DNA of 64,000 nt, from positions 18,467 to 82,466 of the forward strand of contig CAYQCE010000006.1 in the NCBI GenBank assembly GCA_964415885.1. Direction: 5' to 3'. The stretch's first letter is position 1. The number at the start of each line of letters is the position of its first letter. The stretch is from an uncultured Ignavibacteria bacterium (GTDB taxonomy: Bacteria; Zixibacteria; MSB-5A5; JAABVY01; JAHJOQ01). Shown piece by piece: positions 17,887 through 47,517 of this stretch. Under the pieces are notes generated by a model. That model was not told where the DNA came from and searched no databases. It worked only from the letters and a program-made list of their open reading frames with translations. The position numbers were made by a program, and so were the translations under genes.

Positions 17887-17934
17887 TCAGGTCTTTTCGC
17901 CTGTCAAACGCGCGGTCGATCGGCCGCGCGTTTT

Positions 17935-33796: not shown

Positions 33797-34435
33797 TCAG
33801 GAGAAATAACTCACCACCATGTAGTACCAAGACTCGATAAATGCTATCCTCTGTACGAAAAGTGAAACTCGAGCCATTACCGTATATCCGAAACTCGATC
33901 CGAATCCGAGCATAAGGATCCAGATTCCGAATTTCGCCGCGCCTCCGAATGCTCCCTTGTGTTCCTTCGAAAAGAAGAAGTACATGAGCCCCGTGAGTAC
34001 ACCGATCACTATAACTATATTCCAAAACTCTGTCAAGGAGGCAAAGCCAAGATTGAGGTCCAAAGTTGCAGAAAGCTGTCTGTTCACACTGTTGTACATG
34101 TAAAGCGGTATTGCAACACCGGACGTGCCAATATAGAATGCGATCGGATAGCGTGATAGCCACGCCAGTTTCTTCGAAAACCTGAACCACATCATTGCGC
34201 CGAGGAGTCCCGGAATGAGGTACCACCATTCACCGGCGATCACCGGATCGAACAGCTTCGGCTTGAGACTGTTCAGTACCAGGAGGACGGCGAAATAGCC
34301 TGCTCCGACACCGACAACCAGATGCTCTGCAAATTTGTAAAACGGGTTGTCCTTATACAGAAAGCTGAACGTCGCGATTGTCAAAAGCACCGCGAGTGTC
34401 GTCCATAAGAGTTCTACAGTCGGGCCATCTTCCAT
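33797..34435 (-). CDS. module copy 3, protein D: 6-TM membrane protein (uncharacterised family)
   Basis: 212 aa. It shares FLYKDNPxYKFxE, FFFSKEHKGAFGGAAK and FGxSFGYTVMARxSL motifs with 37215..37958 and 40814..41503. Confidence 0.7.
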   Translation of the reverse strand: MEDGPTVELLWTTLAVLLTIATFSFLYKDNPFYKFAEHLVVGVGAGYFAVLLVLNSLKPKLFDPVIAGEWWYLIPGLLGAMMWFRFSKKLAWLSRYPIAFYIGTSGVAIPLYMYNSVNRQLSATLDLNLGFASLTEFWNIVIVIGVLTGLMYFFFSKEHKGAFGGAAKFGIWILMLGFGSSFGYTVMARVSLFVQRIAFIESWYYMVVSYFS

Positions 34436-34450
34436 TTACCTCACCTCCTC

Positions 34451-35302
34451 CTACAGCTTAATTTTCTTCTTACGATCGGACATAAGATATCCGATGTTTC
34501 CAATTAGGATGAACAGCACGATGGTCAGATGCGCGACGACCTGTGCAGGCATACCCTGGTTGGCGTCCGCTTCCTGTCCGACAAGCTGTTCATACTCTGC
34601 AGCACCCACCCAGCCTCCAATAAGGCCGAAGAGTGCGTTGCCGAGATATGGATAGTAGTCGGTGGCCATAACTCCGGTCACCCCGAGAGCGAGAGGCATA
34701 TCGTATCTCGCGTTGCCGTAGATGATCCACATATCGGATGTCGTACCTGATGTTATCGTTACGACCCCCTTAAGGTCATCGTAGTTTCGCACCCTATGCA
34801 TGATCGGGAGCTCATCGAGAGGAGTGTCGTAATAGTCTCTCGGGAAAAACACGCGGAAGTTCTCGCCCATTCCGAGGATCACAAATGCCGGGTATGGACG
34901 ATACCCGAGGAAGCAGTAATCCTCGCCATAGACGACCTCTCGGCCATATATCTCCGCTGCATCCTCCGAGACCTCCCGTGTCACCTGCTCTACCATACCT
35001 GCGCCGTACTGCGAAAGAGTGACGGTGACTACCTTAACACCTTTTCGGAAACAGTGCAGCATGATAGCGCGTGACATGGGATGCAGCTCAGCGAGAGAAC
35101 TGGGGTCGTAATCGAACGACATCAGTATCTTCTCTCCAGGCTCCGCATTCTCGATAAAGTTGTATATAGACTTGACCTCATCGGTGGTTACCACTCCCAC
35201 GGTAAACACGCTTCTCAGGAAGTACGCCATTGACACAACGACGAACAGGAAGAGAAAGACCCAGCGCCTGTCAAGTTCTACCATTCTTTCAAATATATTC
35301 AT
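34451..35302 (-). CDS. module copy 3, protein C: bitopic protein with N- and C-terminal TM helices and ~220-aa periplasmic domain
   Basis: 283 aa, paralogous to 37955..38857 and 41505..42368. Shared segments include SFDYDPS..EL.PM..A and GLLGG..GAAEYE. Confidence 0.7.
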   Translation of the reverse strand: MNIFERMVELDRRWVFLFLFVVVSMAYFLRSVFTVGVVTTDEVKSIYNFIENAEPGEKILMSFDYDPSSLAELHPMSRAIMLHCFRKGVKVVTVTLSQYGAGMVEQVTREVSEDAAEIYGREVVYGEDYCFLGYRPYPAFVILGMGENFRVFFPRDYYDTPLDELPIMHRVRNYDDLKGVVTITSGTTSDMWIIYGNARYDMPLALGVTGVMATDYYPYLGNALFGLIGGWVGAAEYEQLVGQEADANQGMPAQVVAHLTIVLFILIGNIGYLMSDRKKKIKL

Positions 35303-35314
35303 ACCGGCATCCTC

Positions 35315-35938
35315 CTAATCTCTACCGAGGTAAGCCCGTTCAATGCCGAGCATGATTTTGAGTGCAGTTGCGACCGCTCCGAGACCGATTCCGATAATGA
35401 TCGCGCGCTTGGCGGCCAGATTCGGGACCTTAAGAATCCATGTAGCGAGATTAGCAACCGGTTCCGAGATGAATCCCATCGGAACGAATCTGATCATTAT
35501 AACCAGGCCCGCAATAAGGAGCAAAGTCGCCAGAACCGATCTGGCCCGGAATGCCCTGAATGCGGCAGAGGCTATAAAGAAAGCGAGCAATGAGAACATT
35601 GTTGCCTGGATCGGAACCAGAATATGGAAGAAAAAGTGCTCGTACACATAGTTGTTCAGATTTCCACCGCCGGGGAAAAAGCCAAAGATCAGCATCACGA
35701 AAAGTCCGACGAGTGTAACAACTGCGAATCCCCAGTTCTCCGATCTACGGCTGATTTTCCCCCAGTTTACCCGAAGAAGTGACCAAATTCCGAGCAACAG
35801 GGCGAACACGCCGATAACAATTGTCCAGTCGATCAGGTACTGGTACATCCAGGCCCAACTGTCGAGCGGGACGAAATACTGGACGACCATGAACACACTG
35901 ACCATGAACACCATTATCAAGGGAATCCGTTGTTTCAT
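35315..35938 (-). CDS. module copy 3, protein B: 6-TM membrane protein (uncharacterised family)
   Basis: 207 aa. It shares SAxFRAFRARxV.ATLLLIAG, NLAxxRAIxIGIxLG and LGIERxYLG motifs with 38866..39549 and 42368..43021. Confidence 0.7.
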   Translation of the reverse strand: MKQRIPLIMVFMVSVFMVVQYFVPLDSWAWMYQYLIDWTIVIGVFALLLGIWSLLRVNWGKISRRSENWGFAVVTLVGLFVMLIFGFFPGGGNLNNYVYEHFFFHILVPIQATMFSLLAFFIASAAFRAFRARSVLATLLLIAGLVIMIRFVPMGFISEPVANLATWILKVPNLAAKRAIIIGIGLGAVATALKIMLGIERAYLGRD

Positions 35939-35950
35939 AACATATCCTCC

Positions 35951-37189
35951 TTACAGATTCACCCTGACAATTTCGCGGAAGCCCTCCCAGCCGAGTGCGA
36001 CTGCGACAACTCCCACCGCCAACAATACCATCACTATCGCCTTGCCCCAGTCCTCGGCTTTGAGCGACCCGAGAAGCAACGGGTCTCTTCCGAGATACGC
36101 CGAGGCGGCATAGAGTTCTTCGCCGATCAGCGTGTAGTCGCATGCCACGACGAAGAACGGAATTTGCGTAACCTGATCGGTACCGGCAATCTGAATTGCA
36201 CCGATTGCGTTACCCGTCTCCGCGAGAATCAGGGATTCTGCAGCGAAGTAACCCAGGTAGAAGTTCGTAGCCGGGAGATCACGAACCATGATACCGTTCA
36301 CACCCGCGACATACGCGAACTGCGCGTTTGTCACGAAGTAGACCTGATCGTCGGAATACTGATCAGGACGACCGGCTTCGAGATATGACGACTTTACGAC
36401 ATCCTGCGCGACCGACATAACGATCGGGTCGTAGCACGGCACGATCAGGTCTGTCTGATATTCCGCGACCTTCTTTGCGACCCTGCCGAGAATAGTAAAC
36501 GACGCGATCGTCGCAATCTCGGCGGCGGTTCCAATTCCGAGAACATACAGTATGGGCTTCCCCATCTCCGTAGCTCTGCCGATAGCCTCATCCACAGCCT
36601 CGATTCCCGCAAGCGGTCTGACAAACAGATCCTTGCCCTTCTTGGCTACCTGGATGAAGTATATCGTGAACGCCGTGAAGAGAAGTACAGCGACAAGTAC
36701 CGGGACCTTGCCAGTGTGGAACCACTGGCCTTTTGCCTGGAAAGGCCCACCGATTTCCGACTCGGTTGTCTGACCTTCCTCGCCTATAGCCACCACCTTG
36801 TAGTAGTAATCCTTGTCGTTGGCCAGGTAATCTTCATTTGCCGGATCGCTGTCCCCGATATCGAAGTACTCGAAGAAAGTCGACGGGGACCGACCTCGCA
36901 ACTTGAACTCACCGTCCGGAGACTCTGCCCGATAGACCTTGAAGTGATCGATCATATCGACGGCCTCCTCCGGATACTCCCATATGACAGTGAGCTTGTG
37001 CCCGTTGTCGTTGGGATGATCCTTGCCGGAGACAATCACCGGTTTTGGTGGAGGTTCTGTCTCTGCCGGTTGCATGAGCGTATCAGCACCCTCTTCTGCC
37101 GGTTCATCCTGCGCCATTACTGCGGCAGGAATCATCAACAGAAGGAGCAGTGCTGAAAGGAAACACGGAAATATGTACTTCATACGCAA
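35951..37189 (-). CDS. module copy 3, protein A: signal peptide + FN3-like periplasmic domain + TM + conserved cytoplasmic domain + C-terminal TM
   Basis: 412 aa, paralogous to 39556..40812 and 43025..44266. The cytoplasmic core IQIAGT....Q.PFFV.ACDYTLIGEELYAASAYL is nearly invariant. The periplasmic part has a Y.YRV/YYYKVVA FN3-like signature. Confidence 0.7.
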   Translation of the reverse strand: MRMKYIFPCFLSALLLLLMIPAAVMAQDEPAEEGADTLMQPAETEPPPKPVIVSGKDHPNDNGHKLTVIWEYPEEAVDMIDHFKVYRAESPDGEFKLRGRSPSTFFEYFDIGDSDPANEDYLANDKDYYYKVVAIGEEGQTTESEIGGPFQAKGQWFHTGKVPVLVAVLLFTAFTIYFIQVAKKGKDLFVRPLAGIEAVDEAIGRATEMGKPILYVLGIGTAAEIATIASFTILGRVAKKVAEYQTDLIVPCYDPIVMSVAQDVVKSSYLEAGRPDQYSDDQVYFVTNAQFAYVAGVNGIMVRDLPATNFYLGYFAAESLILAETGNAIGAIQIAGTDQVTQIPFFVVACDYTLIGEELYAASAYLGRDPLLLGSLKAEDWGKAIVMVLLAVGVVAVALGWEGFREIVRVNL

Positions 37190-37214
37190 CCTCGATGGAT
37201 TTGTAGTGAACTTA

Positions 37215-37958
37215 TTATCCGATCATACCGAGCCAGTCGCCGAACAGGTACTGCATTCGTCCGACGAGCAGAGATATACGCGCCATAACCGTATATCCGA
37301 ATGACGCGCCGAAAGTTATCATCAGCACGATGATACCCATCCTGGCTCCTGCACCAAACGCTCCCTTGTGCTCCTTGGAAAAGAAAAAATAGATGAGCCC
37401 ACAGAAAACGCCAATGAATATAACGATGTTCGATAGCGTCTGGCCGAAGTCGAAACCGGCGGCAGACGATATATATAACGAAAAAGTCGTGTTGTTTATC
37501 TGTTGTATAAAATCGGATCTCAGGTACCGCACAAGATTCAGACCTGCAGTGGTTCCGACAATAAATGCCAGCGCCCATCGGGATATCCAGCCCGCATTCG
37601 GCGCGAGCCTCATCAGAAGAAGGATGCCGAGAATGAGCGGGATAATCATGAGCGGTTCCGCGGGATTATCCTTAAGCGCCGGAAGCACCCCACCGACCAT
37701 CGGAGGATAGAGTTTGCCGAAGAGATTTGGCACCATCGTGCCCCAGAATCCCATGCACATCCAGTAGGCGGCACTCACCCCAACGAACAGATGTTCCGCG
37801 AACTTGTAGTACGCGTTATCCTTGTAGAGGAAAGAGAAAATGAACAGCGTCAGAAACGCACCTACCGTTACCAGCGGACCTTTGAGCGCCACGCTGACCG
37901 CGAAAGCGATTATGACAATACCTAACAGAATCCAGGATGCCAGCTTGCTACCGTTCAA
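37215..37958 (-). CDS. module copy 2, protein D: 6-TM membrane protein
   Basis: 247 aa, a paralog of the other D proteins (FLYKDNAYYKFAE, FFFSKEHKGAFGAGAR, FGASFGYTVMARISLLVGR). Confidence 0.7.
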   Translation of the reverse strand: MNGSKLASWILLGIVIIAFAVSVALKGPLVTVGAFLTLFIFSFLYKDNAYYKFAEHLFVGVSAAYWMCMGFWGTMVPNLFGKLYPPMVGGVLPALKDNPAEPLMIIPLILGILLLMRLAPNAGWISRWALAFIVGTTAGLNLVRYLRSDFIQQINNTTFSLYISSAAGFDFGQTLSNIVIFIGVFCGLIYFFFSKEHKGAFGAGARMGIIVLMITFGASFGYTVMARISLLVGRMQYLFGDWLGMIG

Positions 37959-38857
37959 AGCCGCCCTCCTTCGATTCCGTCTGTCTTGTGTTTCCTCCGA
38001 TGTAAGAAGTAGAGCACATTGCCGAATATTATGAAGAAGATTATGACCATGTGCGAAACTGTCTGGGATACCATCAGGCTCATCCCGGCCATCCAGCGAT
38101 CCTTGTACTTCGGATACTGAGTAATGAGCGCATTCTCGTATTCAGCGGCTCCTTTCGCTCCACCGAGAAGGCCGATCAACTGATTCGGATAGTACGGATA
38201 CAGAAGCGGCGCGGAGACCGCGGTACATCCACCTCCAACCGGAACATCACCCGGATCACCCGCATAGAGCACCCATTCCTTGATACCAGGGAATCCGCCA
38301 CCGAATGAGACGATCAAATCGAAATTCCTTACGTTGTTGATATTCTTCATCATCGGAATGGAGTCGATTGCGGTACCTTTGGCATCGGTGGAGTACATTC
38401 GCTTGAAATCGACCAAGAGCAGCCGAATAAGCCCCTGATTACCAGCTTTGTAGCCGAGGTTCACATAGTCCTCGCCGTACTCATAACCGGGAAACTCCGG
38501 ACGCAGTATGGTTTCTATTGTCTCGCCGGTAATGTTATGACCTGTCGCCCAGACAGCCATCATATACAGCCTGCAGTTTCGCTCTGCCAAGTGCCGCACC
38601 AAGGCGTCTGCCATTGGTTGAATCTCGGGAGCGGTTGTCGGGCCGTAATCGAAGGACAGGAGCACTCTCGAGTCTTCCGGCAGATTCTCGACGTAGTCAA
38701 AGAAAGCCTGCACGATCGGAGTGGTCTCCTCTTTCATCGTTGCACCGACCAGCAGCGGTATTACGACGGCAAATGCGATGAAGACGAAGATAATCCGCCT
38801 GTCGATAAATTGAAGTCTCTCGACCATACTCTGTTTATTTGTTTCGTTCGCCGCCAT
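37955..38857 (-). CDS. module copy 2, protein C: bitopic periplasmic-domain protein
   Basis: 300 aa, a paralog of the other C proteins. It overlaps the D gene by 4 nt. Confidence 0.7.
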   Translation of the reverse strand: MAANETNKQSMVERLQFIDRRIIFVFIAFAVVIPLLVGATMKEETTPIVQAFFDYVENLPEDSRVLLSFDYGPTTAPEIQPMADALVRHLAERNCRLYMMAVWATGHNITGETIETILRPEFPGYEYGEDYVNLGYKAGNQGLIRLLLVDFKRMYSTDAKGTAIDSIPMMKNINNVRNFDLIVSFGGGFPGIKEWVLYAGDPGDVPVGGGCTAVSAPLLYPYYPNQLIGLLGGAKGAAEYENALITQYPKYKDRWMAGMSLMVSQTVSHMVIIFFIIFGNVLYFLHRRKHKTDGIEGGRL

Positions 38858-38865
38858 ATATCAAC

Positions 38866-39549
38866 CTAATCCGTATCCTGTCCGAGATATGTTCGCTCGA
38901 CGCCGAGGATAACTCGCAACGACATCGAAATAACCCCCAGTGCAATGCCGATCATAATTGCTCTCTGCCCGGCAAGGTTCGGCACGTCCATTATCCAGTT
39001 TGCCATTGTCGGTATCTGGAGGAACGACCAGCCACCTGTCAGATCCTGAGTAAGCCAGAGTCCGAACGGGGTCCGTCCGAGCAGGATTATAAACGCCGCT
39101 ATTAGCAGAATCGTGGCCTCGATGTTCTTGGCGCGAAATGCGCGATATGATGCCGATCCGACGAAGAACGCCAGGAGTGCGAACATAGAAGCCTGAAGCG
39201 GCGTAAAGATGTACAAATATAGATCGTTGAAGAGTGAGCCGAAAGCCGCAACGTCGCCCTGAATCCCATCCGGATTGTTAATCTTGAATATTCCAGCCGC
39301 AAGCATTACGAGAAATCCTCCGAGCGTCACCAGCGAAAACGGCCAGTCTTCCTTCTTCCGGTTGACTTTTGTCAGGTGCACGCGAACGAGATTGCCGCCG
39401 CCCAGGAGGAACGCAAAGACCGCGATGATATCGAAATAGAGCGAGAAATCATCCCCGAGGTTGCCGAACGGCTTGTGCGGGATGAAATCCGCGAGAACCA
39501 GAACGGTTCCAACGATGAATGTTATTGCAAGCGGTACGGTTCGTTTCAT
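38866..39549 (-). CDS. module copy 2, protein B: 6-TM membrane protein
   Basis: 227 aa, a paralog of the other B proteins. Confidence 0.7.
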   Translation of the reverse strand: MKRTVPLAITFIVGTVLVLADFIPHKPFGNLGDDFSLYFDIIAVFAFLLGGGNLVRVHLTKVNRKKEDWPFSLVTLGGFLVMLAAGIFKINNPDGIQGDVAAFGSLFNDLYLYIFTPLQASMFALLAFFVGSASYRAFRAKNIEATILLIAAFIILLGRTPFGLWLTQDLTGGWSFLQIPTMANWIMDVPNLAGQRAIMIGIALGVISMSLRVILGVERTYLGQDTD

Positions 39550-39555
39550 TTCAGA

Positions 39556-40812
39556 CTAACTCGCTGAGAATATCGATCTAAATGTTTTAGCCAGCGACAG
39601 CAGGCTTTCAGAATTGGCTATTGTCGCAACCGTGAAAAGCCCGCATCCTATTATAATGGCGGCCATCGCTATCATCTTACCAACATCCTGCCCCTTGAGA
39701 GACCCGAGCTGTTTCGGTTCGCCTGAGAGATATGCCGATGCCGCAAATAGCTCCTCACCGATTAGAGTATAGTCGCACGCGGCAACAAAGAACGGAAGCT
39801 GCGCGGGCATTGCTGTGCCGGCGATCTGTATTGCCCCGATCGAGTTACCGGTCTCCGCCATAATCAGTGACTCCGCGAAAAACGCACCCAGATAGAAACA
39901 TGTAGCGGGCTTCTCACGGACCATGATACCGTCGACTGCGGCGACATACCCGAACTGCTCGTCGGTCAGGTAATGAACCATGTCGTCAGAGTAAGCCTCC
40001 GGTCTGCCCGCAGCGACATACGCCTGCTTGACAGTCTCACGCGCGGTGGTCATAACGATCGATCGCGAGACCGGCATGTTGAGCTTTGTATCATAATTTG
40101 CTATTGTCCTTGCAATTCTGCCGAGGATTGTTATTCCAGCAACCGTCTGGACATCATCCATATCGAGAATGCCGGGAATGAAAAGAATGGGACGTCCCAT
40201 CTCGGTCGCACGTCCAATCGCTTCGTCAACCGCCTCGAGACCCGCGATCTTTCGCAGATAGAGCTTCTTGCCTTTTTGGGCAGCGAAGATGAAGAATATG
40301 ACCGAGACAGAGATTATCAGGCCAATGATGAATGTGTCGAGGTCTTTGATGCTGAACCACTGCGCGGATGATGTAACAGGGCGTGAAATCGACGATCTCG
40401 AGGATTCCCCGTCCGCAAAAGTTTCGACGTAGTAATAGTATTCCTCGCCATCGGTCGTGGTCGCATCCTCGAATTCGGTCAGTCCCCTCGAGGCTGAACC
40501 GATGACCTCGAACGGTCCGGTCGGGCTTTGGCTGCGGTAAATGACGTACGAAGTCACATTATCATCGCCTGCGCCGTCATCGGGTGACAATGTCCACGAA
40601 ACATGAATCGAACTACCCGCATCGCCCGGATTGTCCTGCACGACATCGATCCTGGCCGGCTCGGGCGGATCGGCGGGCATGGCTTCCTCGACCGCCATCG
40701 CGGTATCCACCATCGTAGTATCAGGAGTGTCTTCCTCCTGCGCGAGCACCGAAACATGCGCAAAGGCAAAAAACGCGAGTATCGCGAGTATTTTGATACC
40801 CAGACTCTTCAT
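39556..40812 (-). CDS. module copy 2, protein A: FN3/TM/cytoplasmic-domain protein
   Basis: 418 aa with signal peptide MKSLGIKILAILAFFAFAHVSVLA. It is a paralog of the other A proteins. Confidence 0.7.
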   Translation of the reverse strand: MKSLGIKILAILAFFAFAHVSVLAQEEDTPDTTMVDTAMAVEEAMPADPPEPARIDVVQDNPGDAGSSIHVSWTLSPDDGAGDDNVTSYVIYRSQSPTGPFEVIGSASRGLTEFEDATTTDGEEYYYYVETFADGESSRSSISRPVTSSAQWFSIKDLDTFIIGLIISVSVIFFIFAAQKGKKLYLRKIAGLEAVDEAIGRATEMGRPILFIPGILDMDDVQTVAGITILGRIARTIANYDTKLNMPVSRSIVMTTARETVKQAYVAAGRPEAYSDDMVHYLTDEQFGYVAAVDGIMVREKPATCFYLGAFFAESLIMAETGNSIGAIQIAGTAMPAQLPFFVAACDYTLIGEELFAASAYLSGEPKQLGSLKGQDVGKMIAMAAIIIGCGLFTVATIANSESLLSLAKTFRSIFSAS

Positions 40813-40813
40813 A

Positions 40814-41503
40814 TCAACTGAATGTCCCTATAAACCATGTGTTGACCAGAAAATCGAGCCTTCCGATCAGAAGCGACATACGGCTCATCACAGTGTATCC
40901 GAATGACGCCCCGAATGTTATCATCAGGAACCATGTACCCACCTTGGCTGCTCCGCCGAAGAAACCCCGGTGCTCCTTCGAGAAAAAGAAGTACACGAGA
41001 CCGGTAAATGTCCCCACCAGTATAAGGGCATTTCCGAATCCATGCCAGAAATCTCTTACCGGTTCCACACCTCCGGCGTCGGAAATCGGCCCGAATATCG
41101 GAACGATCGTGTTGTATATCTGGACCACGCCGTTGGATACGAGATAGTTGATGAACTGTAGTCCTGCGGTCGCGCCGACAACCAGCGCAAGCGGCCATCT
41201 CGAAATCCAACCTATCGGCGGCACGAGCCGCATGAGCATCATCAGGCCGAAGATGCCGGCGATCACGTAGAGCAGTCCGTCGGTGATCTCGCCGCGCGCG
41301 AAGAGCGCCTCGAGTGCGGGCCAGAGATTGTCCCAGAGCTTCGATACCAGATTCTGCCAGAAGAGCGACACAAACCAGTAGCCGGCCGAGAGGCCGACGA
41401 AAATAGCCTCGGAGATCTTATACCATGGATTGTCCTTGTACAGGAAAGACATGATCCCGAGCGTAAGAAATGCGGCTATCCAGACTCCGATATCGAAAGT
41501 CAT
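40814..41503 (-). CDS. module copy 1, protein D: 6-TM membrane protein
   Basis: Start taken at MTFDIGVW (41503), 1 nt after the stop of the C gene. The longer track ORF runs back into the C gene. Confidence 0.65.
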   Translation of the reverse strand: MTFDIGVWIAAFLTLGIMSFLYKDNPWYKISEAIFVGLSAGYWFVSLFWQNLVSKLWDNLWPALEALFARGEITDGLLYVIAGIFGLMMLMRLVPPIGWISRWPLALVVGATAGLQFINYLVSNGVVQIYNTIVPIFGPISDAGGVEPVRDFWHGFGNALILVGTFTGLVYFFFSKEHRGFFGGAAKVGTWFLMITFGASFGYTVMSRMSLLIGRLDFLVNTWFIGTFS

Positions 41504-41504
41504 A

Positions 41505-42368
41505 TTACTGTTCCACGTCCAGTTTGCTCTTGCCCCTGCCGGTAATGGCATAGGCGAGATTGCCAACGATAATAAAGAAGATCACTATTGCATGCGCGAA
41601 CGTCTGCGACAACATGAAAGTCGTCGCCTTCGCTGTAAACCCGGTTACTTCCTCGAATTCGGCTCCGCCTCTCATTCCGCCCAGAAGCCCCACGAGCTGT
41701 CCGGCGCCAAGGTAGGGATACGCCAGCGGCGCCTGCACGGCGGTGTTACCAGCACCGAGCACGACACCATATCGGTCGACAGCGACCTGCACCCATTCGA
41801 CAGTGCCGGGGTATCCGGCCGAGAAATTGAAAGCGAAATCTATGTTCGAATAGTTCTTAACATTGTTCAGCAGCGGGATATCCTCGTAGCGGTTACCCCG
41901 AACATCCTTGGAGAAAGCCTCACGGAAGTCCGATCCCATGCGCTGAATCACGAATTCATTCCCTGCCTGGAACCCGAGATTGACGTAATCCACGCCGTAT
42001 TCGATATCTTTGTCTTTAAGCTCCGGACTGGCGAGTGCGCGCTGGATAGATATCTCCGCCTGCTGCGGCCCCTGTGGCCAAAGTCCCATGATGATGAGTT
42101 TGAGATCATTCATGAACGCATACTTGACGGCAGCATCGGCCATCGGCTGAAGCTCAGGTGCAGACGGCGGGTCATAATCGAATGACATCAGGACCTTCGA
42201 ACCGGGTGGAAGGTTCTCGTAAGCCTCAAAGAGACCTGCGGTTTCGGGTGATATGAGAAGCTCGTATTCAACGGCCATGAACGGCAGCATGGGCAAGAGG
42301 AGAGAGATGCCGACGAAGAGGAATATCCATCGTCGGTCGATGGCAAGCATTTTATCCCAGAATCCCAT
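41505..42368 (-). CDS. module copy 1, protein C: bitopic periplasmic-domain protein
   Basis: 287 aa. Its start overlaps the B stop by 1 nt (TGATG). Confidence 0.7.
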   Translation of the reverse strand: MGFWDKMLAIDRRWIFLFVGISLLLPMLPFMAVEYELLISPETAGLFEAYENLPPGSKVLMSFDYDPPSAPELQPMADAAVKYAFMNDLKLIIMGLWPQGPQQAEISIQRALASPELKDKDIEYGVDYVNLGFQAGNEFVIQRMGSDFREAFSKDVRGNRYEDIPLLNNVKNYSNIDFAFNFSAGYPGTVEWVQVAVDRYGVVLGAGNTAVQAPLAYPYLGAGQLVGLLGGMRGGAEFEEVTGFTAKATTFMLSQTFAHAIVIFFIIVGNLAYAITGRGKSKLDVEQ

Positions 42369-43021
42369 CAGTCGCCTCCCCCGAGGTAGGACCTCTCTAT
42401 TCCGAGAATTATCCGCAGTGCAGTCGAAACAGTTCCGAGTGCAATACCGATCATAATAGCTCGCTGGCCGGCGAGATTAGGATAGTTCATTATAAAAGAG
42501 GATATCTCGGACAACGGCTGGAAATCCTGCACCCATGGTCCGAAAATAATGTCATCGAACAGCACTCGTCCCATCATGACAAGAAATCCTGCCACCAGAA
42601 GCAGCGTTGCCTGCACATTTCTCGCCCTGAAGGCTCGATATGATGCTGATGCCACGAAGAACGCGAGGATCGCGAACATTGTGGCAGACAGCGGTGTGTA
42701 GATATTCACATACAACCAATCGAACGCGGTGCCCGGTGTCTGGAATCCGCGGCCTCCCGCGAATCCGGCAATTGCCATCGCAAGCCAGGAAATGATGATT
42801 ATTATCGAGTACGGCCAGTCTTTTTGCTGACGCTGCACTTTGATGATCGACAGTTTCAGGAGATTGAGCGCGCCGAGCCATATTGCGCACGCAGCAATTA
42901 TGAAAAACCAGTCAGAGAATAGCTGTTCGAATTTGTCGAATGGCGAGTGCGGTATAAAATACTGCACAACGAATGCTATCCCGACAACCGCCGTTATTAT
43001 GAGTGGTATCTCTCGTCTCAT
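42368..43021 (-). CDS. module copy 1, protein B: 6-TM membrane protein
   Basis: 217 aa, a paralog of the other B proteins. Confidence 0.7.
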   Translation of the reverse strand: MRREIPLIITAVVGIAFVVQYFIPHSPFDKFEQLFSDWFFIIAACAIWLGALNLLKLSIIKVQRQQKDWPYSIIIIISWLAMAIAGFAGGRGFQTPGTAFDWLYVNIYTPLSATMFAILAFFVASASYRAFRARNVQATLLLVAGFLVMMGRVLFDDIIFGPWVQDFQPLSEISSFIMNYPNLAGQRAIMIGIALGTVSTALRIILGIERSYLGGGD

Positions 43022-43024
43022 AAC

Positions 43025-44266
43025 CTAATTCGCTGTCACTTTAAACAGACTCGCGAAGTCGTATATTCCGAGTGTTTGAATTATGACTCCGATTGCTATC
43101 ACTGCCAGAATAACTCCCTTGCCGACATCCTGCCCCTTAAGCGATCCGAGGAGTTTCGGTTCCTTCGACAGATACGCCGAAGCTGCGAAGAGTTCCTCGC
43201 CGATCAACGTGTAATCGCATGCCGCGACGAAAAACGGCAACTGTGCCGGCATGGCTGTCCCGGCTATCTGTATCGCGCCTATGGAATTTCCAGTCTCTGC
43301 GAGAATCAGAGATTCGGCATAGAACGCGCCCATGTAGAACATGGTAGCGGGCTTCTCGCGCACCACCATTCCGTCGATAGCGGCCGCATATCCAAACTGA
43401 TCGTCAGTCAAATAGTGTACCGTATCCTCGTGAAATGCATCCGGGCGTCCGGCATTCAGATACGCTTCCCTCACAATCTCTCGCGCGGTTACCATGACGA
43501 GCGAACGCGAAACCGGGACATCAAGAGCAGTGTCATACTGCGCAGCGAGCCGTGCCACGCGGCCGAGTATTGTCACTCCGGCAATTGTCTGGATATTTTC
43601 CATATCCTGAGTGCCCGGCACATAGAATATCTTCTTCCCCATCTCCGTTGCGCGTCCCACAGCCTCATCAACCGCCTCAAGTCCTGCGATCTTGCGGATA
43701 AACAGCTCCTTGCCCTTGCGAGCCTGAGAGATGTAGTAGATGATCAGAGACCCGATCACGATTGCGAAGATCAACACAATCGTACGATTTGTGTTGAACC
43801 ACTGTGCTTTGGCTTTAACCGAGCCTGACGGCTCCGAGTAGGATTTCATCTCAACCCATTCGCCGGGAGCCTGCTCAACCCTGTCAACCGTGACTATGCG
43901 ATAGACATACTCGACGCCATTTTCGGCGTAATTGTCGGTGATTCTGGTCTGACCGGATGTCGCGTTGCCCATCACTTCGTAGGTTGCATCGTCAGCGTTT
44001 ATCTCTTTTCGTTCAATATCATAACGGTCGATGACCCCGTTGGTATCATCCGGGGACAACTCCCAGTGAATCTGGATCGAGCCTCCGTGATCGTTGGGAG
44101 TATCATTAGCAGTGACGTTGGCAGCAGGGCGTGGAGCCTCGGGCAGAGACTCAAGCATCTCCGTCTCAGCAAGGGTATCCGTCACAACCCGTGTCGTATC
44201 TTCCTGCGCAAACGCGAACGCACAGGAGACAGAGAGAATCAATATCGTTACAACGGCTTTCTTCAT
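43025..44266 (-). CDS. module copy 1, protein A: FN3/TM/cytoplasmic-domain protein (first gene of 12-gene operon)
   Basis: Start taken at MKKAVVTILILSVSCAFAFA (signal peptide). The 20-codon N-terminal extension in the ORF track is a translation of the upstream terminator hairpin. Confidence 0.7.
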   Translation of the reverse strand: MKKAVVTILILSVSCAFAFAQEDTTRVVTDTLAETEMLESLPEAPRPAANVTANDTPNDHGGSIQIHWELSPDDTNGVIDRYDIERKEINADDATYEVMGNATSGQTRITDNYAENGVEYVYRIVTVDRVEQAPGEWVEMKSYSEPSGSVKAKAQWFNTNRTIVLIFAIVIGSLIIYYISQARKGKELFIRKIAGLEAVDEAVGRATEMGKKIFYVPGTQDMENIQTIAGVTILGRVARLAAQYDTALDVPVSRSLVMVTAREIVREAYLNAGRPDAFHEDTVHYLTDDQFGYAAAIDGMVVREKPATMFYMGAFYAESLILAETGNSIGAIQIAGTAMPAQLPFFVAACDYTLIGEELFAASAYLSKEPKLLGSLKGQDVGKGVILAVIAIGVIIQTLGIYDFASLFKVTAN

Positions 44267-44289
44267 AATTGTGCTGACTACTAAAGAAA

Positions 44290-44320
44290 AGAGACCGTCA
44301 ATAAAGAGCGGACGGTCTCT
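44290..44320 (-). terminator. intrinsic-terminator-like hairpin in the leader of the 12-gene operon (candidate attenuator)
   Basis: A perfect 10-bp stem AGAGACCGTC/GACGGTCTCT with an 11-nt loop is followed on the - strand by TTTTCTTT. The hairpin ends 15 nt before the ATG of the first operon gene. Confidence 0.5.
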
Positions 44321-44419
44321 GGTCAAAATCTATCAAAAGGCTAAGTATGCGAGTTCTTCTGTCGAAACAATCACGTGCAAGCCTTCTTAGCTGGATAATG
44401 TCGATTTCCAAGTTCACCT

Positions 44420-44448
44420 AATTTATTCCAGCACAAGATTCAAGTCAA
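44420..44448 (-). promoter_or_regulatory. candidate sigma70-type promoter for the 12-gene membrane-module operon
   Basis: On the - strand, TTGACT (44448-44443), a 17-nt spacer and TAAATT (44425-44420). It lies immediately downstream of the preceding gene's stop and upstream of the leader hairpin. Confidence 0.4.
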
Positions 44449-44461
44449 GCCAAAACTGGCA

Positions 44462-45589
44462 TTAAGCTTCGATCAGTTCAACGTTTGCGCGCGGAATGAT
44501 CGCCTTCTCACCGTCCTCGAATTCGACACCCAGAATACGAGCCATCGACTCCGACTCGAGCTTGTGAAGTTCCGGCTGCAGATCGGTCACCTTGCCGAGC
44601 TTGCCGAAGTACGGCTGACGGATCACGCGGATCGGCGATCCGATTCCGAGGCCGGCGGACTTCTCCTCGTCCTCGTCCGACATAACACGCTTTTCGCCCT
44701 CGAAGGGGATTACGACTTCGGGACGAATGACACCCGCACGGATCTGCGTGGCACCGTTTATACAGGCCATCATCCCTTCCTTCGACTTGAGAAGCTCAAA
44801 TGTGCGTCCGGCCATCATAATCTCGCCGAAACCCTCGGTAACCACGAGTGAAACACCGACATCCTCGTTGCCGGTGATCGCGACACCGATGTCCTGGCCG
44901 AGGAAATCACGGAGATCCTGGTCATCAAATCCACCTACGACAATGCCCTTGGCCTTGACATCGACGGCCTTGCGGATAGCATCGGCGGTAACGAGACTGC
45001 CACCGACAATCACTTTGTCCTTGCAGGAGTCATCGATCAGAGAATCGGTCAGGACCTGGCTGCTGTTGTCGACTACCATCTTGATTTCGCCGTGTGTCTC
45101 GCCACCGATTCCGAAAATACCCTGCACGAACGTGCCGACTGTCTCGACGACTACGCCCTCCGTCTCGATAACCTCCTTAACCGTGCCGTCGAGATAGGCT
45201 TTCACCTCGACAGGTATCGGATGTCCGCGGAGCAGTACCTGTCCGGTAACGTTCGAGACATTCTCCACGCTGCCGTCGATTTTGGACTTCGCCTCGGACT
45301 TGAACAGACCGAAGAAGCTCTTGGTCATGGCGATGGTCTCGCCTTTTTCGATCGGCTCGCCTTCCTTTTTGAGCATTGCATCCGGTACATCCTCCGGCGG
45401 AAGACCGAGAATGTTCGCAACATTCATCGGCTCGACGTTTCCAGGAAGGTCCGTCCGGGCAACCACTGTGTCCGGTTCCACACTGTCACCGACTTTGACG
45501 ACAACTTCGCCCTTGAGCGGGAGGATTCTCCGTTTCCGGATAACCATCTTCTCCGTGACTTTCAGGCCGGGCGTATATGCATGAGCCAT
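44462..45589 (-). CDS. conserved hypothetical protein (375 aa, Gly/Val-rich beta-type), partner of the ASKHA ATPase
   Basis: Clean ORF with no TM helices. It lies 62 nt downstream of the ASKHA-ATPase gene on the same strand. No family is recognisable from sequence. Confidence 0.5.
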   Translation of the reverse strand: MAHAYTPGLKVTEKMVIRKRRILPLKGEVVVKVGDSVEPDTVVARTDLPGNVEPMNVANILGLPPEDVPDAMLKKEGEPIEKGETIAMTKSFFGLFKSEAKSKIDGSVENVSNVTGQVLLRGHPIPVEVKAYLDGTVKEVIETEGVVVETVGTFVQGIFGIGGETHGEIKMVVDNSSQVLTDSLIDDSCKDKVIVGGSLVTADAIRKAVDVKAKGIVVGGFDDQDLRDFLGQDIGVAITGNEDVGVSLVVTEGFGEIMMAGRTFELLKSKEGMMACINGATQIRAGVIRPEVVIPFEGEKRVMSDEDEEKSAGLGIGSPIRVIRQPYFGKLGKVTDLQPELHKLESESMARILGVEFEDGEKAIIPRANVELIEA

Positions 45590-45651
45590 TAATCTAACTC
45601 CTATCTATCAACGACGAATATTCTCGGGTATCATCAAACGACTTGCGCCAT

Positions 45652-47517
45652 CTAATCAAGCTTCTTCTTCAGGGCATCAACCGGGTAGATGTCGAGCTCG
45701 GCTATCCACTCGAGTAACTTTTCAACTCTTCGGCTGTCTTCCTCAGGTGGCGTGAATGGCCTCCCGCGGCCATCGAGGATTATACCCACCACTCCACCGG
45801 AAATTGTCGTCTCGACCTGATGACCCTTTCCATTGCCGACATCATGATTCCGATCCGGCTTCAGAGCGGCCTTTGCCTTGAACGGCAGGTCGGTTTCCTT
45901 GTCGAAACCGAGCTTTATAAGCTTCATCTGACCGGGCACCAGTTCGCCCTCCTCGCTCTTGCCATCGGGAAGCTCTATCTTGTAGTGCATGAGGGGCTTA
46001 TTGCCCTTCTGCTCCCCGATAGGGGCGATGCACGTCCCGAGATGAATCAGGCAGTCCTTCTCGAACACCTCGGTCGCTGCCGCCTGATGAACCTCTGCCA
46101 GCACACCGAGCTGCGGCATCATAAAGATCGAATCGACCGCGAGCCGGGTTATACCCTCCGGCTGGAATGCGTCGATCATCATCAGAGCCGACTGCTGGCG
46201 GCGAGGAGCGTGCGATAGCACACCGCCGGAGCCGATCAACATATCGAGAGACATCATATTGACGAGTGTTTTTCCCGATGCGCTCTGGCTGAATGCGTCC
46301 GCGATAGTTCTCTGCTGCTGCACGCCCTTGAGCACGGTCGCGAAACTCTTGTGCTGCACCAGTGCAAGCCTGAGCGCCTCGCGAGCGATCGCCTGCTCGA
46401 ACACGAGCTCCTCCATCGACTGCGGGATAGTGGTCGGACGGATCATCTTGTTTTTCACGCGGTTACGCAGGTCGCGCTCATCGAGATGGAACGGCACCCA
46501 CCGCATGACATTCTTGATACCCGCTTCCTTGAACACATTCGACACCGAATAGCTCATTCCGAGGTTCGCGGACACTGTCCTGTTGAATACATCCTGGAAA
46601 ACAGAGAAGACATCGGTGGTCGCCCCGCCGATATCGACTCCGAGAGCCTCTATATCGTTTATATCTGCAATAGTCTTGATAATCGATCCCACCGCACCCG
46701 GCGTCGGCATGATCGGAGCATCTGTCCAGCTCATCAACTTGCTGTAGCCGGGAGCCTGCGCCATTACGTGCTCCATAAAGAGATCGTGGATCTTCTCACG
46801 CGCCGGCATCAGGTTTTCTCTCTCGAGCACGGGTCGGATATTGTCTACAATCTCGAGGTCGACCTTGTCGGCAAGTGTGTCGGATATCTTATCGCGGGCG
46901 TTCTTGTTACCGGCATAGATCACCGGCAATTGATAGCCGGATCCGAGGCGCGGTCTCGGGTCGGCGGCGGAGATCAACTCTGCGAGTTCCACGACGTGAG
47001 TCGTCGTGCCACCGTCAATACCTCCGGACAGGAGTATCATGTCGGGGCGAAGATGACGGATACGTTCAATCTGCTCGTGAGGCTGGCGCTTGTCGTTGGA
47101 CGCTATAACATCCATCACTATCGACCCGGCACCCAACGCGGCGCGCTCAGCGGATTCCGCGGTCATCGTACGAACCACGCCCGCAACCATCATCTGAAGG
47201 CCACCGCCTGCGGATGATGTCGAGAAGTAGGCATCAGTTCCCACCCGGCTGCCGTTCTTGTCCGCTCTCGGGGAGATAATGCGGTTTTCCTCATCGAGCA
47301 GCTTTCGTCCGGACAGCTCCTCGATTTCCTGTACGGCATTGAGCACTCCCATAGTGACATCCTCGAAGGGAGCCTCCACAGTCGTCGGCGCTTCACCGCG
47401 TGAGATAAGCCGGTATTCACCCTCACGCTTTTCGATCAGGATCGCCTTGGTGGTGGTCGATCCACAATCCGTCGCGAGAATGACTTCAATATCTTCAGGT
47501 TTAAGATTCTTGGCCAT
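45652..47517 (-). CDS. ASKHA-fold (actin/Hsp70/sugar-kinase-like) ATPase resembling GlmL(MutL)/EutA-type proteins
   Basis: 621 aa. The N-terminal phosphate-1 motif is ILATDCGSTTTKAILI. A second nucleotide-binding motif is GVDIGGATTDVFSVF. There is an internal SGGIDGGTTTHV segment. The pattern matches the glutamate-mutase-associated GlmL / EutA family, but no B12 mutase gene is nearby. Confidence 0.45.
   Translation of the reverse strand: MAKNLKPEDIEVILATDCGSTTTKAILIEKREGEYRLISRGEAPTTVEAPFEDVTMGVLNAVQEIEELSGRKLLDEENRIISPRADKNGSRVGTDAYFSTSSAGGGLQMMVAGVVRTMTAESAERAALGAGSIVMDVIASNDKRQPHEQIERIRHLRPDMILLSGGIDGGTTTHVVELAELISAADPRPRLGSGYQLPVIYAGNKNARDKISDTLADKVDLEIVDNIRPVLERENLMPAREKIHDLFMEHVMAQAPGYSKLMSWTDAPIMPTPGAVGSIIKTIADINDIEALGVDIGGATTDVFSVFQDVFNRTVSANLGMSYSVSNVFKEAGIKNVMRWVPFHLDERDLRNRVKNKMIRPTTIPQSMEELVFEQAIAREALRLALVQHKSFATVLKGVQQQRTIADAFSQSASGKTLVNMMSLDMLIGSGGVLSHAPRRQQSALMMIDAFQPEGITRLAVDSIFMMPQLGVLAEVHQAAATEVFEKDCLIHLGTCIAPIGEQKGNKPLMHYKIELPDGKSEEGELVPGQMKLIKLGFDKETDLPFKAKAALKPDRNHDVGNGKGHQVETTISGGVVGIILDGRGRPFTPPEEDSRRVEKLLEWIAELDIYPVDALKKKLD

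What the first reader, a model, noticed from the sequence alone, without database searches (positions are those of the whole stretch)
44264..44461. Promoter followed by a terminator hairpin immediately upstream of the first start codon: candidate attenuator/riboswitch leader for the 12-gene operon
On the - strand the arrangement is a sigma70-like promoter (TTGACT-17-TAAATT, 44448-44420), then a ~90-nt leader, then a perfect 10-bp stem-loop (44320-44290) with TTTTCTTT, with the ATG of gene A only 15 nt further on. No room remains for a promoter downstream of the hairpin. Transcription of the operon must therefore read through an intrinsic terminator. That is the classic architecture of transcription attenuation or a riboswitch expression platform. 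The ORF-track N-terminus of gene A (MTRDRPLFIDGLFSLVVSTI) is simply the hairpin translated.
Basis: partly seen in the sequence, partly recalled or inferred. Interest (0 to 1): 0.6.

Follow-up and report, generated by a model that had tools for sequence, protein, structure and literature searches.

The report
Leader-peptide attenuator before a membrane operon
The hairpin is a real, evolutionarily conserved transcription terminator sitting between a conserved promoter and the first gene of a 12-gene operon of unknown function, and it is preceded by a conserved 13-codon mini-gene whose stop codon lies 12 bases before the hairpin, so the operon is most likely switched by whether a ribosome is translating that mini-gene (a known kind of control, newly seen here in an uncultivated phylum), not by a riboswitch.

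Summary
On the - strand there is TTGACT-17-TAAATT (44448-44420), then a perfect 10-bp hairpin (44320-44290) with a T-run, then gene A's ATG (44266) 23 nt later.

- **Chance:** such hairpin+T-run sites are about 12-fold rarer by chance (5 in the window vs 0.43 expected).
- **Conservation:** twelve distinct orthologous leaders from Zixibacteria-like metagenomes keep the promoter, the hairpin (with compensatory changes) and the T-run.
- **No riboswitch signal:** there is no Rfam hit and no conserved structure other than the hairpin. The leader has no excess folding energy, and nothing in it is unusually complementary to the terminator's 5' arm.
a conserved leader ORF (GTG 44374 to TGA 44333, 13 codons, SD-like AAGAAGG 7 nt upstream). 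Its length is invariant and its peptide sequence is not. Its stop lies 11-15 nt before the hairpin in all 12 leaders (chance about 1e-10).
- **Other clades:** leader ORFs in other clades end -3 to +10 nt from their terminators (8/13 vs 1.9 expected).

Best reading: a pyrE/pyrBI-like translation-coupled attenuator that also ends the upstream GlmL-like operon. It is a new member of a known kind. The mechanism is inferred, not measured.

The parts
44443..44448 (-). -35 hexamer TTGACT of the operon promoter. [quoted passage not shown]
   Evidence: consensus scan. CTTGACT is invariant in 15 sequences / 12 distinct leaders. TTGACN-16..18-TAnnnT was found 70-280 nt upstream of 56 DUF6754 gene starts in related loci.
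44420..44425 (-). -10 hexamer TAAATT, 17-nt spacer. The predicted transcription start is about 44413 and has not been measured.
   Evidence: TAAATT/TAGATT is conserved at the same spacing in most leaders of alignment A2 (TAACTT in L164, TTAATT in L165).
44382..44388 (-). Shine-Dalgarno-like purine tract AAGAAGG, 7 nt upstream of the leader ORF start.
   Evidence: A GAAGG/GAAAG/GAGG/CAGG tract sits 7-8 nt before the start in the 11 leaders that have the 13-codon ORF (upstream-20 column). It is weaker than the SDs of most other genes in the window.
44333..44374 (-). Leader ORF (uORF): GTG + 12 sense codons + TGA, peptide M-IVSTEELAYLAF.
   Evidence: translation. Start and stop codons are the most conserved leader positions outside the promoter and terminator (G91 T92 G93, T130 G131 A132). 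The ORF is exactly 42 nt in 11 of 12 distinct leaders while all flanking segments vary in length. The stop is kept through a TGA-to-TAA change in L161. Chance about 3-6% per leader, 1.4e-10 over 7 sub-clades.
44321..44332 (-). 12-nt A/T-rich spacer between the leader-ORF stop codon and the base of the terminator stem.
   Evidence: The spacer is 11-15 nt in all 12 distinct leaders. This lies within the distance range (<27-30 nt) at which a ribosome at a stop codon represses an intrinsic terminator in E. coli (PMC4824070).
44290..44320 (-). Intrinsic-terminator hairpin: 10-bp perfect stem AGAGACCGTC/GACGGTCTCT with an 11-nt loop.
   Evidence: -15.2 kcal/mol, pairing probability about 1. It is the only consensus structure in alignment A1. 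It is 85.5% paired vs 27-55% when the register is slid, with 4 pairs showing double changes. Anchored table for 12 leaders.
44283..44289 (-). T-run TTTCTTT (U-tract) directly after the stem.
   Evidence: A T-run follows the hairpin in all 12 leaders.
43025..44266 (-). Gene A, the first gene of the operon: signal peptide + FN3 + DUF6754, ATG at 44266-44264. It has no Shine-Dalgarno motif.
33797..44266 (-). The controlled 12-gene operon: three tandem diverged copies of a four-gene module A-B-C-D.
44462..47517 (-). Upstream co-directional genes: a GlmL/MutL-like ATPase at 45652-47517 and a 375-aa protein at 44462-45589. Their transcripts run into the same leader and terminator.
   Evidence: Synteny is conserved across phyla and the genes overlap (ATGA) in some. 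Homologs elsewhere usually carry their own terminator 23-45 nt after the stop.

Best explanation
This is a ribosome-dependent (translation-coupled) transcription attenuator in the 5' leader of the DUF6754 operon.

Proposed sequence of events:
1. A sigma-70-type promoter directly after the upstream gene starts a leader of about 147 nt.
2. The leader carries a 13-codon ORF (GTG 44374 to TGA 44333).
3. The ORF's stop codon lies 12 nt before a strong intrinsic terminator (44320-44283), which itself ends 16 nt before gene A's ATG.
4. If a ribosome translates the leader ORF close behind RNA polymerase and sits at or near the stop codon when the 3' arm emerges, it hinders closure of the hairpin. Polymerase then reads into the 12-gene operon.
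5. If the leader ORF is untranslated or the ribosome lags, the hairpin forms and a leader RNA of about 130 nt is released.

No RNA antiterminator helix is involved. Because the upstream GlmL-like/375-aa genes have no terminator of their own here, the same element also ends, or gates read-through from, that operon. This is 'operon polarity control', as at rph-pyrE.

Shown: the sequence elements, their conservation, their spacing and their statistical significance. Inferred: that the promoter fires, that the ORF is translated, that the hairpin terminates, and that translation relieves it. Unknown: the physiological signal.
For: 1. Promoter conservation: invariant in 12 distinct leaders, and the motif class is found upstream of 56 related DUF6754 gene starts.
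2. Terminator: the hairpin+T-run is one of 5 such sites in the window vs 0.43 expected. The other four lie in gaps between long ORFs (for three of them), so the organism appears to use such terminators.
3. Terminator conservation:
   - It is conserved, with compensatory changes, in all 12 leaders.
   - A leader terminator 10-45 nt before the start is present in 16/57 leaders vs 2.95+-1.4 in shuffles.
   - It is present even where the upstream gene has its own terminator-like hairpin before the promoter (L114, L122, L125, L097) and where the upstream MutL gene is divergent by tblastn (L138).
4. Leader ORF: fixed at 42 nt, with conserved start, stop and SD-like tract but an unconserved peptide. 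The stop lies 11-15 nt before the hairpin in 12/12 leaders. Chance is 1.4e-10.
5. Independent clades repeat the design with unrelated ORFs of 15-29 codons. These end -3 to +10 nt from the hairpin base: 8/13 vs 1.92 expected, P=8e-5.
6. No alternative RNA structure and no Rfam family, as expected for this mechanism.
7. Established knowledge:
   - In E. coli an intrinsic terminator is almost fully repressed when it lies a few nt after a translated stop codon.
   - It regains full efficiency only beyond about 27-30 nt.
   - Repression disappears when translation is uncoupled (PMC4824070).
   - pyrE expression depends on how close the rph stop codon is to the attenuator (PMC2784333).
Against: - Nothing is measured: there is no TSS, no 3' end and no read-through ratio.
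- A ribosome protects only about 10 nt beyond the A site. A 12-nt gap therefore gives at most marginal direct occlusion in the window clade, so the effect would rest on steric or kinetic hindrance as in the E. coli tR2 series. In that series efficiency at 17-18 nt ranged from 0.12 to 0.8 depending on sequence.
- The SD-like tract is weak (GAAGG/GAAAG) and the start is GTG.
- L167 lacks the canonical 13-codon start and only has a 22-codon ORF with the same stop.
- There is no run of regulatory codons and no conserved peptide, so the sensed signal is unknown. The element could equally be a constitutive, growth-rate-linked 'leak valve'.
- About 70% of DUF6754 leaders in other lineages have no leader terminator.
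- Hairpin presence correlates weakly with a promoter that abuts a co-directional upstream gene (9/18 vs 6/30, p=0.05). This fits a role as the upstream gene's terminator.
Confidence: 0.55

Rival explanations
1. The hairpin is just the intrinsic terminator of the upstream GlmL-like/375-aa operon. The DUF6754 operon is then expressed by unregulated leak through it, and the leader ORF is irrelevant.
For: - In 17 of 30 Zixibacteria-like loci the 375-aa gene's stop is followed by a terminator-like hairpin with a T-run, in 16 of them starting 23-45 nt after the stop. L026's stem (AGAGACCGC/GCGGTCTCT) is almost the same sequence as the window's.
- The window clade has no other terminator for that gene, because the promoter starts 9-16 nt after the stop.
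- Hairpin presence is somewhat associated with a promoter abutting a co-directional gene (9/18 vs 6/30, p=0.05).
Against: - A conserved promoter lies upstream of the hairpin, not downstream.
- The leader terminator also occurs where the upstream gene has its own terminator-like hairpin before the promoter (L114, L122, L125, L097) or where the upstream MutL gene is divergent (L138).
- The leader ORF, with its fixed length and fixed distance to the hairpin, is far beyond chance.
- This role is probably real, but as a second function rather than the only one.
Confidence: 0.15
2. The element acts mainly on translation or mRNA stability of gene A, not on transcription. The hairpin and U-tract 16-23 nt before an SD-less ATG would serve as a ribosome standby/S1 site or as a stabiliser. 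Ribosomes finishing the leader ORF might re-initiate at gene A.
For: - Gene A has no SD although most genes in the window do.
- The window-clade relatives also show no purine-rich tract between the T-run and the ATG (sequences).
- The distance from the T-run to the start codon is narrow (16-28 nt in most leaders).
Against: - The hairpin+T-run has every feature of the terminators found between long ORFs in this window.
- Clade-2 leaders keep the terminator although their gene A has an SD-like AAGGAAA/AAGGGAA.
- The stop-to-ATG distance is about 66 nt, which is long for re-initiation.
- This reading does not explain why the leader ORFs end exactly at the hairpin base in other clades.
Confidence: 0.1
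3. Read-through is controlled by a trans-acting factor that recognises short conserved leader motifs (A[AG]CTT[TG] at the TSS, the TGAT region) and makes polymerase terminator-resistant. Candidates are a NusG-paralog type processive antiterminator or an RNA-binding antiterminator protein.
For: - A long (about 10.5 kb) operon of membrane and exported proteins with a long leader is the typical client of RfaH/LoaP/UpxY-type systems (general knowledge).
- Short invariant leader motifs exist outside the promoter and terminator.
- No RNA antiterminator is present.
Against: - The conserved 'TGA(T)' motif is explained by the leader-ORF stop codon, which changes to TAA in L161, and 'GTG' by its start.
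- No such factor gene was identified next to the operon. The window was not fully scanned for one.
- The mechanism does not predict an ORF of fixed length.
Confidence: 0.08
4. The conserved promoter plus terminator define a small-RNA gene of about 130 nt whose product acts in trans. Operon expression would be a by-product of read-through.
For: The unit promoter, about 130 nt, intrinsic terminator is the canonical sRNA gene layout, and the layout is conserved.
Against: - Leader sequence is poorly conserved apart from the ORF start and stop (61% mean column identity).
- There is no conserved structure and no Rfam match.
- The element is always glued to the start of the DUF6754 gene.
- A trans role of the terminated leader cannot be excluded and would not contradict attenuation.
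Confidence: 0.05
5. It is a metabolite-binding riboswitch, or a classical trp-type attenuator with mutually exclusive antiterminator and terminator helices.
For: Only the general architecture of promoter, long leader, terminator and ATG.
Against: - No Rfam hit, even at E<=10 on the leader and E<=0.1 on 11 related loci.
- The only consensus helix is the terminator.
- Pre-terminator leader folding z = -0.2.
- Complementarity of the 5' arm to the upstream leader equals that of shuffles (mean z -0.01).
- The terminator has pairing probability about 1 in the window leader.
- There are no runs of regulatory codons in the leader peptides.
Confidence: 0.03

Closest known systems
rph-pyrE attenuator of Escherichia coli (UTP-modulated, translation-coupled 'operon polarity control'; Bonekamp et al. 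1984 and Jensen 1993 as cited in PMC2784333)
   Same: - An intrinsic terminator lies between an upstream ORF and the regulated gene.
- There is no antiterminator helix.
- Read-through depends on a ribosome reaching a stop codon that lies close to the terminator hairpin.
- The same element ends or gates transcription coming from the upstream gene (for the published description; for the geometry here).
   Different: - Here the ORF that ends at the terminator is a dedicated 13-codon leader ORF with its own promoter, not the end of a full-length enzyme gene.
- The regulated genes are not pyrimidine genes.
- UTP-sensitive pausing is not shown.
- The organism belongs to a different phylum.
pyrBI leader-peptide attenuator of enteric bacteria
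   Same: A leader ORF plus an intrinsic terminator just before the first structural gene. A closely following ribosome physically prevents terminator hairpin formation. The position of the stop relative to the hairpin is critical (described in PMC4824070).
   Different: In pyrBI the 44-codon leader ORF runs through the terminator, whereas here it stops 11-15 nt before it (-3 to +10 nt in other clades). The signal (UTP) and the pathway are unrelated, and pause sites are not identified here.
Generic ribosome repression of stop-codon-proximal intrinsic terminators (lambda tR2 position series, Li et al. 2016, PMC4824070)
   Same: The geometry is the same: a stop codon 11-15 nt upstream of the first stem base falls in the range where termination efficiency is strongly reduced by coupled translation and is restored when translation is uncoupled.
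   Different: That is an engineered E. coli system. Here the geometry is a conserved natural arrangement in a 5' leader, which implies selection for it.
Classical amino-acid leader-peptide attenuators (trpL, hisL, pheL, leuL, thrL, ilvL)
   Same: A short leader ORF and an intrinsic terminator in the 5' leader. Ribosome position decides termination.
   Different: Those need alternative 1:2 / 2:3 / 3:4 helices and runs of regulatory codons. Neither is present here.
tnaC (tryptophanase operon leader peptide)
   Same: A short leader peptide whose ribosome acts while at its UGA stop codon by covering the RNA immediately downstream.
   Different: tnaC blocks Rho loading rather than an intrinsic hairpin, and it depends on a conserved peptide sequence that senses tryptophan. 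The peptides here are not conserved.

Membership tests
Intrinsic (Rho-independent) terminator | A G+C-containing stem-loop immediately followed by a U-tract | tested here: met
   10-bp perfect stem (6 G-C), -15.2 kcal/mol, then TTTCTTT. One of 5 such sites in the window vs 0.43 expected.
Intrinsic (Rho-independent) terminator | Actually releases transcripts (3' ends at the U-tract) | not testable with these tools
   Needs Term-seq, 3'-RACE or in vitro transcription.
Riboswitch | A conserved ligand-binding aptamer (conserved sequence core and covarying helices) upstream of the expression platform | tested here: not met
   No Rfam match. RNAalifold finds only the terminator helix or nothing. Leader MFE z = -0.2 over 12 leaders.
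Riboswitch | An antiterminator (or P1) strand that competes with the terminator 5' arm | tested here: not met
   Duplex energy of the 5' arm with the upstream leader equals that of shuffles (mean z -0.01, n=17; window -0.11). Terminator pairing probability is about 1.
trp-type leader-peptide attenuator | A short translated ORF in the leader | tested here: met
   A 13-codon ORF conserved in frame, length, start, stop and SD-like tract. Translation itself is not shown.
trp-type leader-peptide attenuator | Tandem regulatory codons for the cognate amino acid | tested here: not met
   The peptides (MIVSTEELAYLAF, MEYFILVLSTVNC, MKQFVVNRTSLFR...) have no codon runs and are not conserved.
trp-type leader-peptide attenuator | Mutually exclusive antiterminator and terminator helices | tested here: not met
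pyrE/pyrBI-type translation-coupled attenuator | An ORF whose translation ends at, in, or a few nt before an intrinsic terminator located upstream of the regulated gene | tested here: met
   The stop lies 12 nt before the stem in the window, 11-15 nt in 12/12 leaders, and -3 to +10 nt in 8 leaders of other clades.
pyrE/pyrBI-type translation-coupled attenuator | No alternative RNA structure; the ribosome itself prevents hairpin formation | tested here: inconclusive
   Absence of an alternative structure is shown. Ribosome-dependent read-through is inferred only from E. coli data on comparable spacings.
pyrE/pyrBI-type translation-coupled attenuator | NTP-sensitive polymerase pausing in the leader that sets the ribosome-polymerase distance; pyrimidine genes downstream | not tested
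   Pausing cannot be measured with these tools and no pause-site analysis was attempted. The downstream genes are DUF6754-module genes, not pyrimidine genes. This is therefore a functional analogue and not a homolog of the pyr attenuators.
Small regulatory RNA gene | An own promoter and terminator, with a conserved sequence or structure module independent of the neighbouring gene | tested here: inconclusive
   Promoter and terminator are present. There is no conserved structure or seed-like block apart from the ORF start and stop. The unit is always fused to the DUF6754 gene start.

The most novel reading that the evidence does not exclude
A previously undescribed and widespread family of 'stop-codon-proximal terminator' attenuators. 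In Zixibacteria-like lineages (mostly unclassified metagenome contigs), independently diverged leader ORFs of 13-29 codons all end within about 15 nt of an intrinsic terminator in front of the same uncharacterised DUF6754 membrane-module operon. Expression of this envelope system, and read-through from the linked GlmL-like ATPase operon, would then be gated directly by the cell's transcription-translation coupling state or by a ribosome-stalling signal, without any RNA switch.
Probability: 0.4. Interest if true: 0.6.

Novelty: new member of a known kind. Interest (0 to 1): 0.45.

Why it matters
Translation-coupled attenuators without an antiterminator helix are known from very few textbook cases (pyrBI, pyrE). 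They are invisible to riboswitch and covariation screens, which look for structure. Here comparative genomics alone exposes one in an uncultivated phylum, and it recurs in several lineages in front of the same operon.

It gives three things:
1. A concrete, testable regulatory handle on a conserved, completely uncharacterised 12-gene membrane system and its linkage to a GlmL-like ATPase.
2. A natural example of the stop-codon/terminator distance rule so far measured in engineered E. coli constructs.
3. A search recipe for finding more such elements: a short ORF of fixed length whose stop sits 15 nt or less from a leader terminator.

It does not change any principle.

Tried and rejected
1. Rfam was run at gathering score on the whole window, at E<=10 on 44150-44600, and at E<=0.1 on 11 related loci. 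Only noise came back.
2. Thermodynamic search for an antiterminator. The MFE and constrained folds of the window leader and a duplex-vs-shuffle statistic on 17 leaders found none.
3. Consensus structure. RNAalifold on 5 leaders gave only the terminator. On 15 leaders it gave nothing, because MAFFT mis-registered the hairpin arms, so I anchored the hairpins by hand.
4. The 39-codon GTG ORF 44417-44298 that ends in the 3' arm. It was rejected as a leader peptide because its start lies at or before the predicted TSS and it is not conserved (L080 has an early stop).
5. A second promoter inside or after the hairpin (TTGACC-17-TATTGA; TTGACG in the 3' arm). The -10 candidates are poor and not conserved, and L080/L111 have TCGACG.
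6. Hairpin as a dispersed repeat. It is unique in the window.
7. Hairpin only as the upstream gene's terminator. The association test was borderline and there are counter-examples.
8. Exact-match look-up of the 375-aa protein found nothing on record.
9. Function of the operon. Pfam, NCBIfam and the literature give nothing beyond DUF6754/FN3/GlmL-like.
10. The primary pyrE papers and the Turnbough & Switzer review are not held in the library. The published mechanism is therefore cited through PMC2784333 and PMC4824070.
Full report
**1. Observation**

On the - strand the 375-aa gene ends with TAA at 44464-44462. TTGACT (44448-44443), a 17-nt spacer and TAAATT (44425-44420) follow.

A perfect 10-bp hairpin, AGAGACCGTC / 11-nt loop / GACGGTCTCT, occupies 44320-44290 and is followed by TTTCTTT (44289-44283). 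Gene A's ATG is at 44266-44264.

The longer TTG-initiated reading of gene A is the hairpin translated. The ATG start gives a signal peptide.

The hairpin alone folds at -15.2 kcal/mol, and in the whole leader its pairs have probability about 1.

Perfect stems of at least 8 bp followed by a T-run occur 5 times in the window against 0.43 expected. The other four lie in gaps between long ORFs (for three of them). The hairpin sequence is unique in the window.

**2. Context**

The downstream 12 genes (33797-44266) are three diverged tandem copies (30-55% identity) of a four-gene module. The first protein of each copy carries DUF6754. The genes are packed with gaps of -62 to +31 nt.

Upstream lie a GlmL/MutL-like ATPase and a 375-aa protein that matches no family.

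Homologs of the 375-aa protein place the window among Zixibacteria-like MAGs (best 72% identity). The order MutL-like, 375-aa gene, DUF6754 gene recurs in records labelled as six candidate phyla or classes. In five loci the DUF6754 ATG overlaps the upstream stop.

**3. Is the hairpin simply the upstream gene's terminator?**

In 17 of 30 Zixibacteria-like loci the 375-aa gene is followed by a terminator-like hairpin with a T-run, in 16 of them starting 23-45 nt after its stop. L026's stem is almost identical in sequence to the window's. That role is therefore plausible.

But closer relatives tell more. They came from a metagenome scan with gene A and from contigs encoding its closest homologs. 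Twelve distinct leaders (gene A 69-92% identical) all have the following, in order:
- the promoter 9-16 nt after the upstream stop;
- a pre-terminator leader of 89-98 nt;
- a hairpin of -11.5 to -20.5 kcal/mol followed by a T-run;
- the start codon 8-25 nt later.

The promoter block (T-run, CTTGACT, 17 nt, TAAATT/TAGATT in most leaders) is invariant or nearly so. A TTGACN-16..18-TAnnnT motif was found 70-280 nt upstream of 56 DUF6754 gene starts in related loci.

A terminator-like hairpin with its T-run starting 10-45 nt before the start codon is present in 16 of 57 leaders, against 2.95+-1.4 in dinucleotide shuffles.

It is present in L114, L122, L125 and L097 although the upstream gene there has its own terminator-like hairpin before the promoter. 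It is also present in L138, where the upstream MutL gene is divergent by tblastn.

Its association with a promoter abutting a co-directional gene is only borderline (9/18 vs 6/30, p=0.05).

No promoter-like element is conserved after the hairpin.

The hairpin is therefore a conserved component of the DUF6754 operon leader. In the window clade it is also the only available terminator for the upstream genes.

**4. Riboswitch or RNA antiterminator?**

Rfam gives nothing.

On five leaders the only consensus helix is the terminator. It is 85.5% paired, against 27-55% when the register is slid, and four pairs carry changes on both sides. An anchored table over 12 leaders shows A-T/T-A/G-C and T-A/C-G exchanges.

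The pre-terminator leader is no more stable than shuffles (mean z -0.2).

The 5' arm of the terminator has no better partner in the upstream leader than in shuffled leaders (mean z -0.01, n=17; window -0.11).

**5. What else is conserved: a leader ORF**

Inside the leader the most conserved columns are G91 T92 G93 and T130 G131 A132 of the window's intergenic sequence. These are a GTG at 44374-44372 and a TGA at 44335-44333, 13 codons apart (V/M-IVSTEELAYLAF-stop).

Eleven of the 12 distinct leaders have a GTG/ATG ORF of exactly 13 codons. A purine tract (GAAGG/GAAAG/GAGG/CAGG) lies 7-8 nt upstream of the start.

The twelfth leader (L167) has a 22-codon ORF with the same stop position. In L161 the stop is TAA instead of TGA.

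In all 12 leaders the stop lies 11-15 nt before the first stem base.

The ORF is 42 nt in every case, while all flanking segments vary in length (41-50, 11-15, 24-31 and 8-25 nt).

The peptides are not conserved between sub-clades and contain no codon runs.

In shuffled leaders an ORF of this kind appears in 3-6% of trials. Over seven sub-clades the product is 1.4e-10.

Leaders of other clades that carry a terminator show the same principle with unrelated ORFs of 15-29 codons. These end -3 to +10 nt from the hairpin base in L106, L120, L122, L125, L114, L126, L103 and L097. That is 8 of 13 against 1.92 expected, P=8e-5.

**6. Mechanism**

This is inference resting on established knowledge.

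In E. coli the lambda tR2 terminator is almost fully repressed when it lies a few nt after a translated stop codon. It regains full efficiency only beyond about 27-30 nt. At 17-18 nt its efficiency ranges from 0.12 to 0.8 depending on sequence, and repression vanishes when translation is uncoupled. The pyrBI attenuator shows the same dependence with a sharp boundary (PMC4824070).

pyrE expression likewise depends on how close the rph stop codon lies to the attenuator loop (PMC2784333).

The window's 12-nt gap is inside this ribosome-sensitive range.

I therefore propose the following. A ribosome translating the 13-codon leader ORF close behind the polymerase hinders terminator folding and lets transcription enter the operon. 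Without coupled translation the hairpin forms and a leader RNA of about 130 nt is released.

Transcripts coming from the upstream GlmL-like operon meet the same gate.

The sensed signal is unknown. Candidates are NTP-dependent pausing, general translation capacity, and a ribosome-stalling compound.

Weak points:
- No experimental data exist for any step.
- A ribosome covers only about 10 nt past the A site, so occlusion at 12 nt is marginal rather than direct.
- The SD-like tract is weak and the start codon is GTG.
- One leader lacks the canonical start.

**7. Comparison and verdict**

The element works like the pyrE/pyrBI translation-coupled attenuators and is not homologous to them.

It fails two defining features of trp-type attenuators (alternative helices and regulatory codons) and the defining features of riboswitches.

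It is a new member of a known kind of control. It was found in front of a widespread but uncharacterised operon, and no paper in the library mentions DUF6754.

The leader ORF, which is the key feature, was missed.

Noticed in passing
window 33797-44266 (- strand): The '12-gene operon' is a tandem triplication of a four-gene module: A = signal peptide + FN3 + DUF6754, B = about 215-aa multi-TM protein, C = about 285 aa, D = about 250 aa. The copies are 30-55% identical. Pfam and NCBIfam give no function, and no paper in the library mentions DUF6754.
   Followed up: partly
window 44462-47517; loci L013, L028, L032-L079: A GlmL/MutL-like ATPase and a 375-aa protein without any family are syntenic with the DUF6754 module in records labelled Zixibacteria, Eisenbacteria, CSSED10-310, Terriglobia, Planctomycetota and Fermentibacteraceae. 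In L058, L059, L064, L075 and L079 the DUF6754 start codon overlaps the upstream stop. This suggests a functional link between the ATPase pair and the membrane module.
   Followed up: partly
L026 4150-4185 and downstream to about 7100: In this Zixibacteria MAG the 375-aa gene is followed after 23 nt by a terminator (AAAGAGACCGCC...GGCGGTCTCTTT) whose stem nearly matches the window hairpin, although no DUF6754 gene follows. The next 3 kb or so are AT-rich with no ORF of 80 aa or more.
   Followed up: no
window 8844-8871 (+), 17906-17933 (+), 57528-57552 (+), 14511-14544 (-): These are the only other perfect hairpin+T-run sites in the window. The first two lie between convergent long ORFs and have A-tract/T-tract flanks, so they look bidirectional. 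The one at 14511-14544 lies 31 nt after the stop of a long ORF.
   Followed up: partly
L028 2270-2312: The DUF6754 gene here is preceded by TTGACA-17-TTAATT ending 7 nt before the ATG, with no SD. This looks like a leaderless mRNA, a different solution from the long leader seen elsewhere.
   Followed up: no
L106, L120, L122, L125, L114 leaders (about 190-230 nt upstream of the DUF6754 start): A second leader clade shares a CAGGGGGTGA motif near the 5' end, a homologous terminator (AAACCTTC...GAAGGTTT) and 24-29-codon leader ORFs ending at the hairpin base. AGGGGGU could pair with the terminator's 5' arm ACCUUCU, so an additional RNA antiterminator is possible in that clade only.
   Followed up: partly
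window 44266 vs other gene starts: Gene A lacks a Shine-Dalgarno motif, whereas most other genes in the window have GGAG/AGGA-type motifs. The window-clade relatives also show no purine-rich tract before the ATG. The U-rich tract after the hairpin may double as the ribosome landing site.
   Followed up: partly
L164, L166, L168, L167, L169 leaders: In this sub-clade the leader ORF frame stays open upstream to an ATG/GTG only about 8-10 nt after the predicted TSS, giving 22-24 codons. The translated leader peptide may therefore be longer there, and for L167 it is the only version with a canonical start.
   Followed up: no
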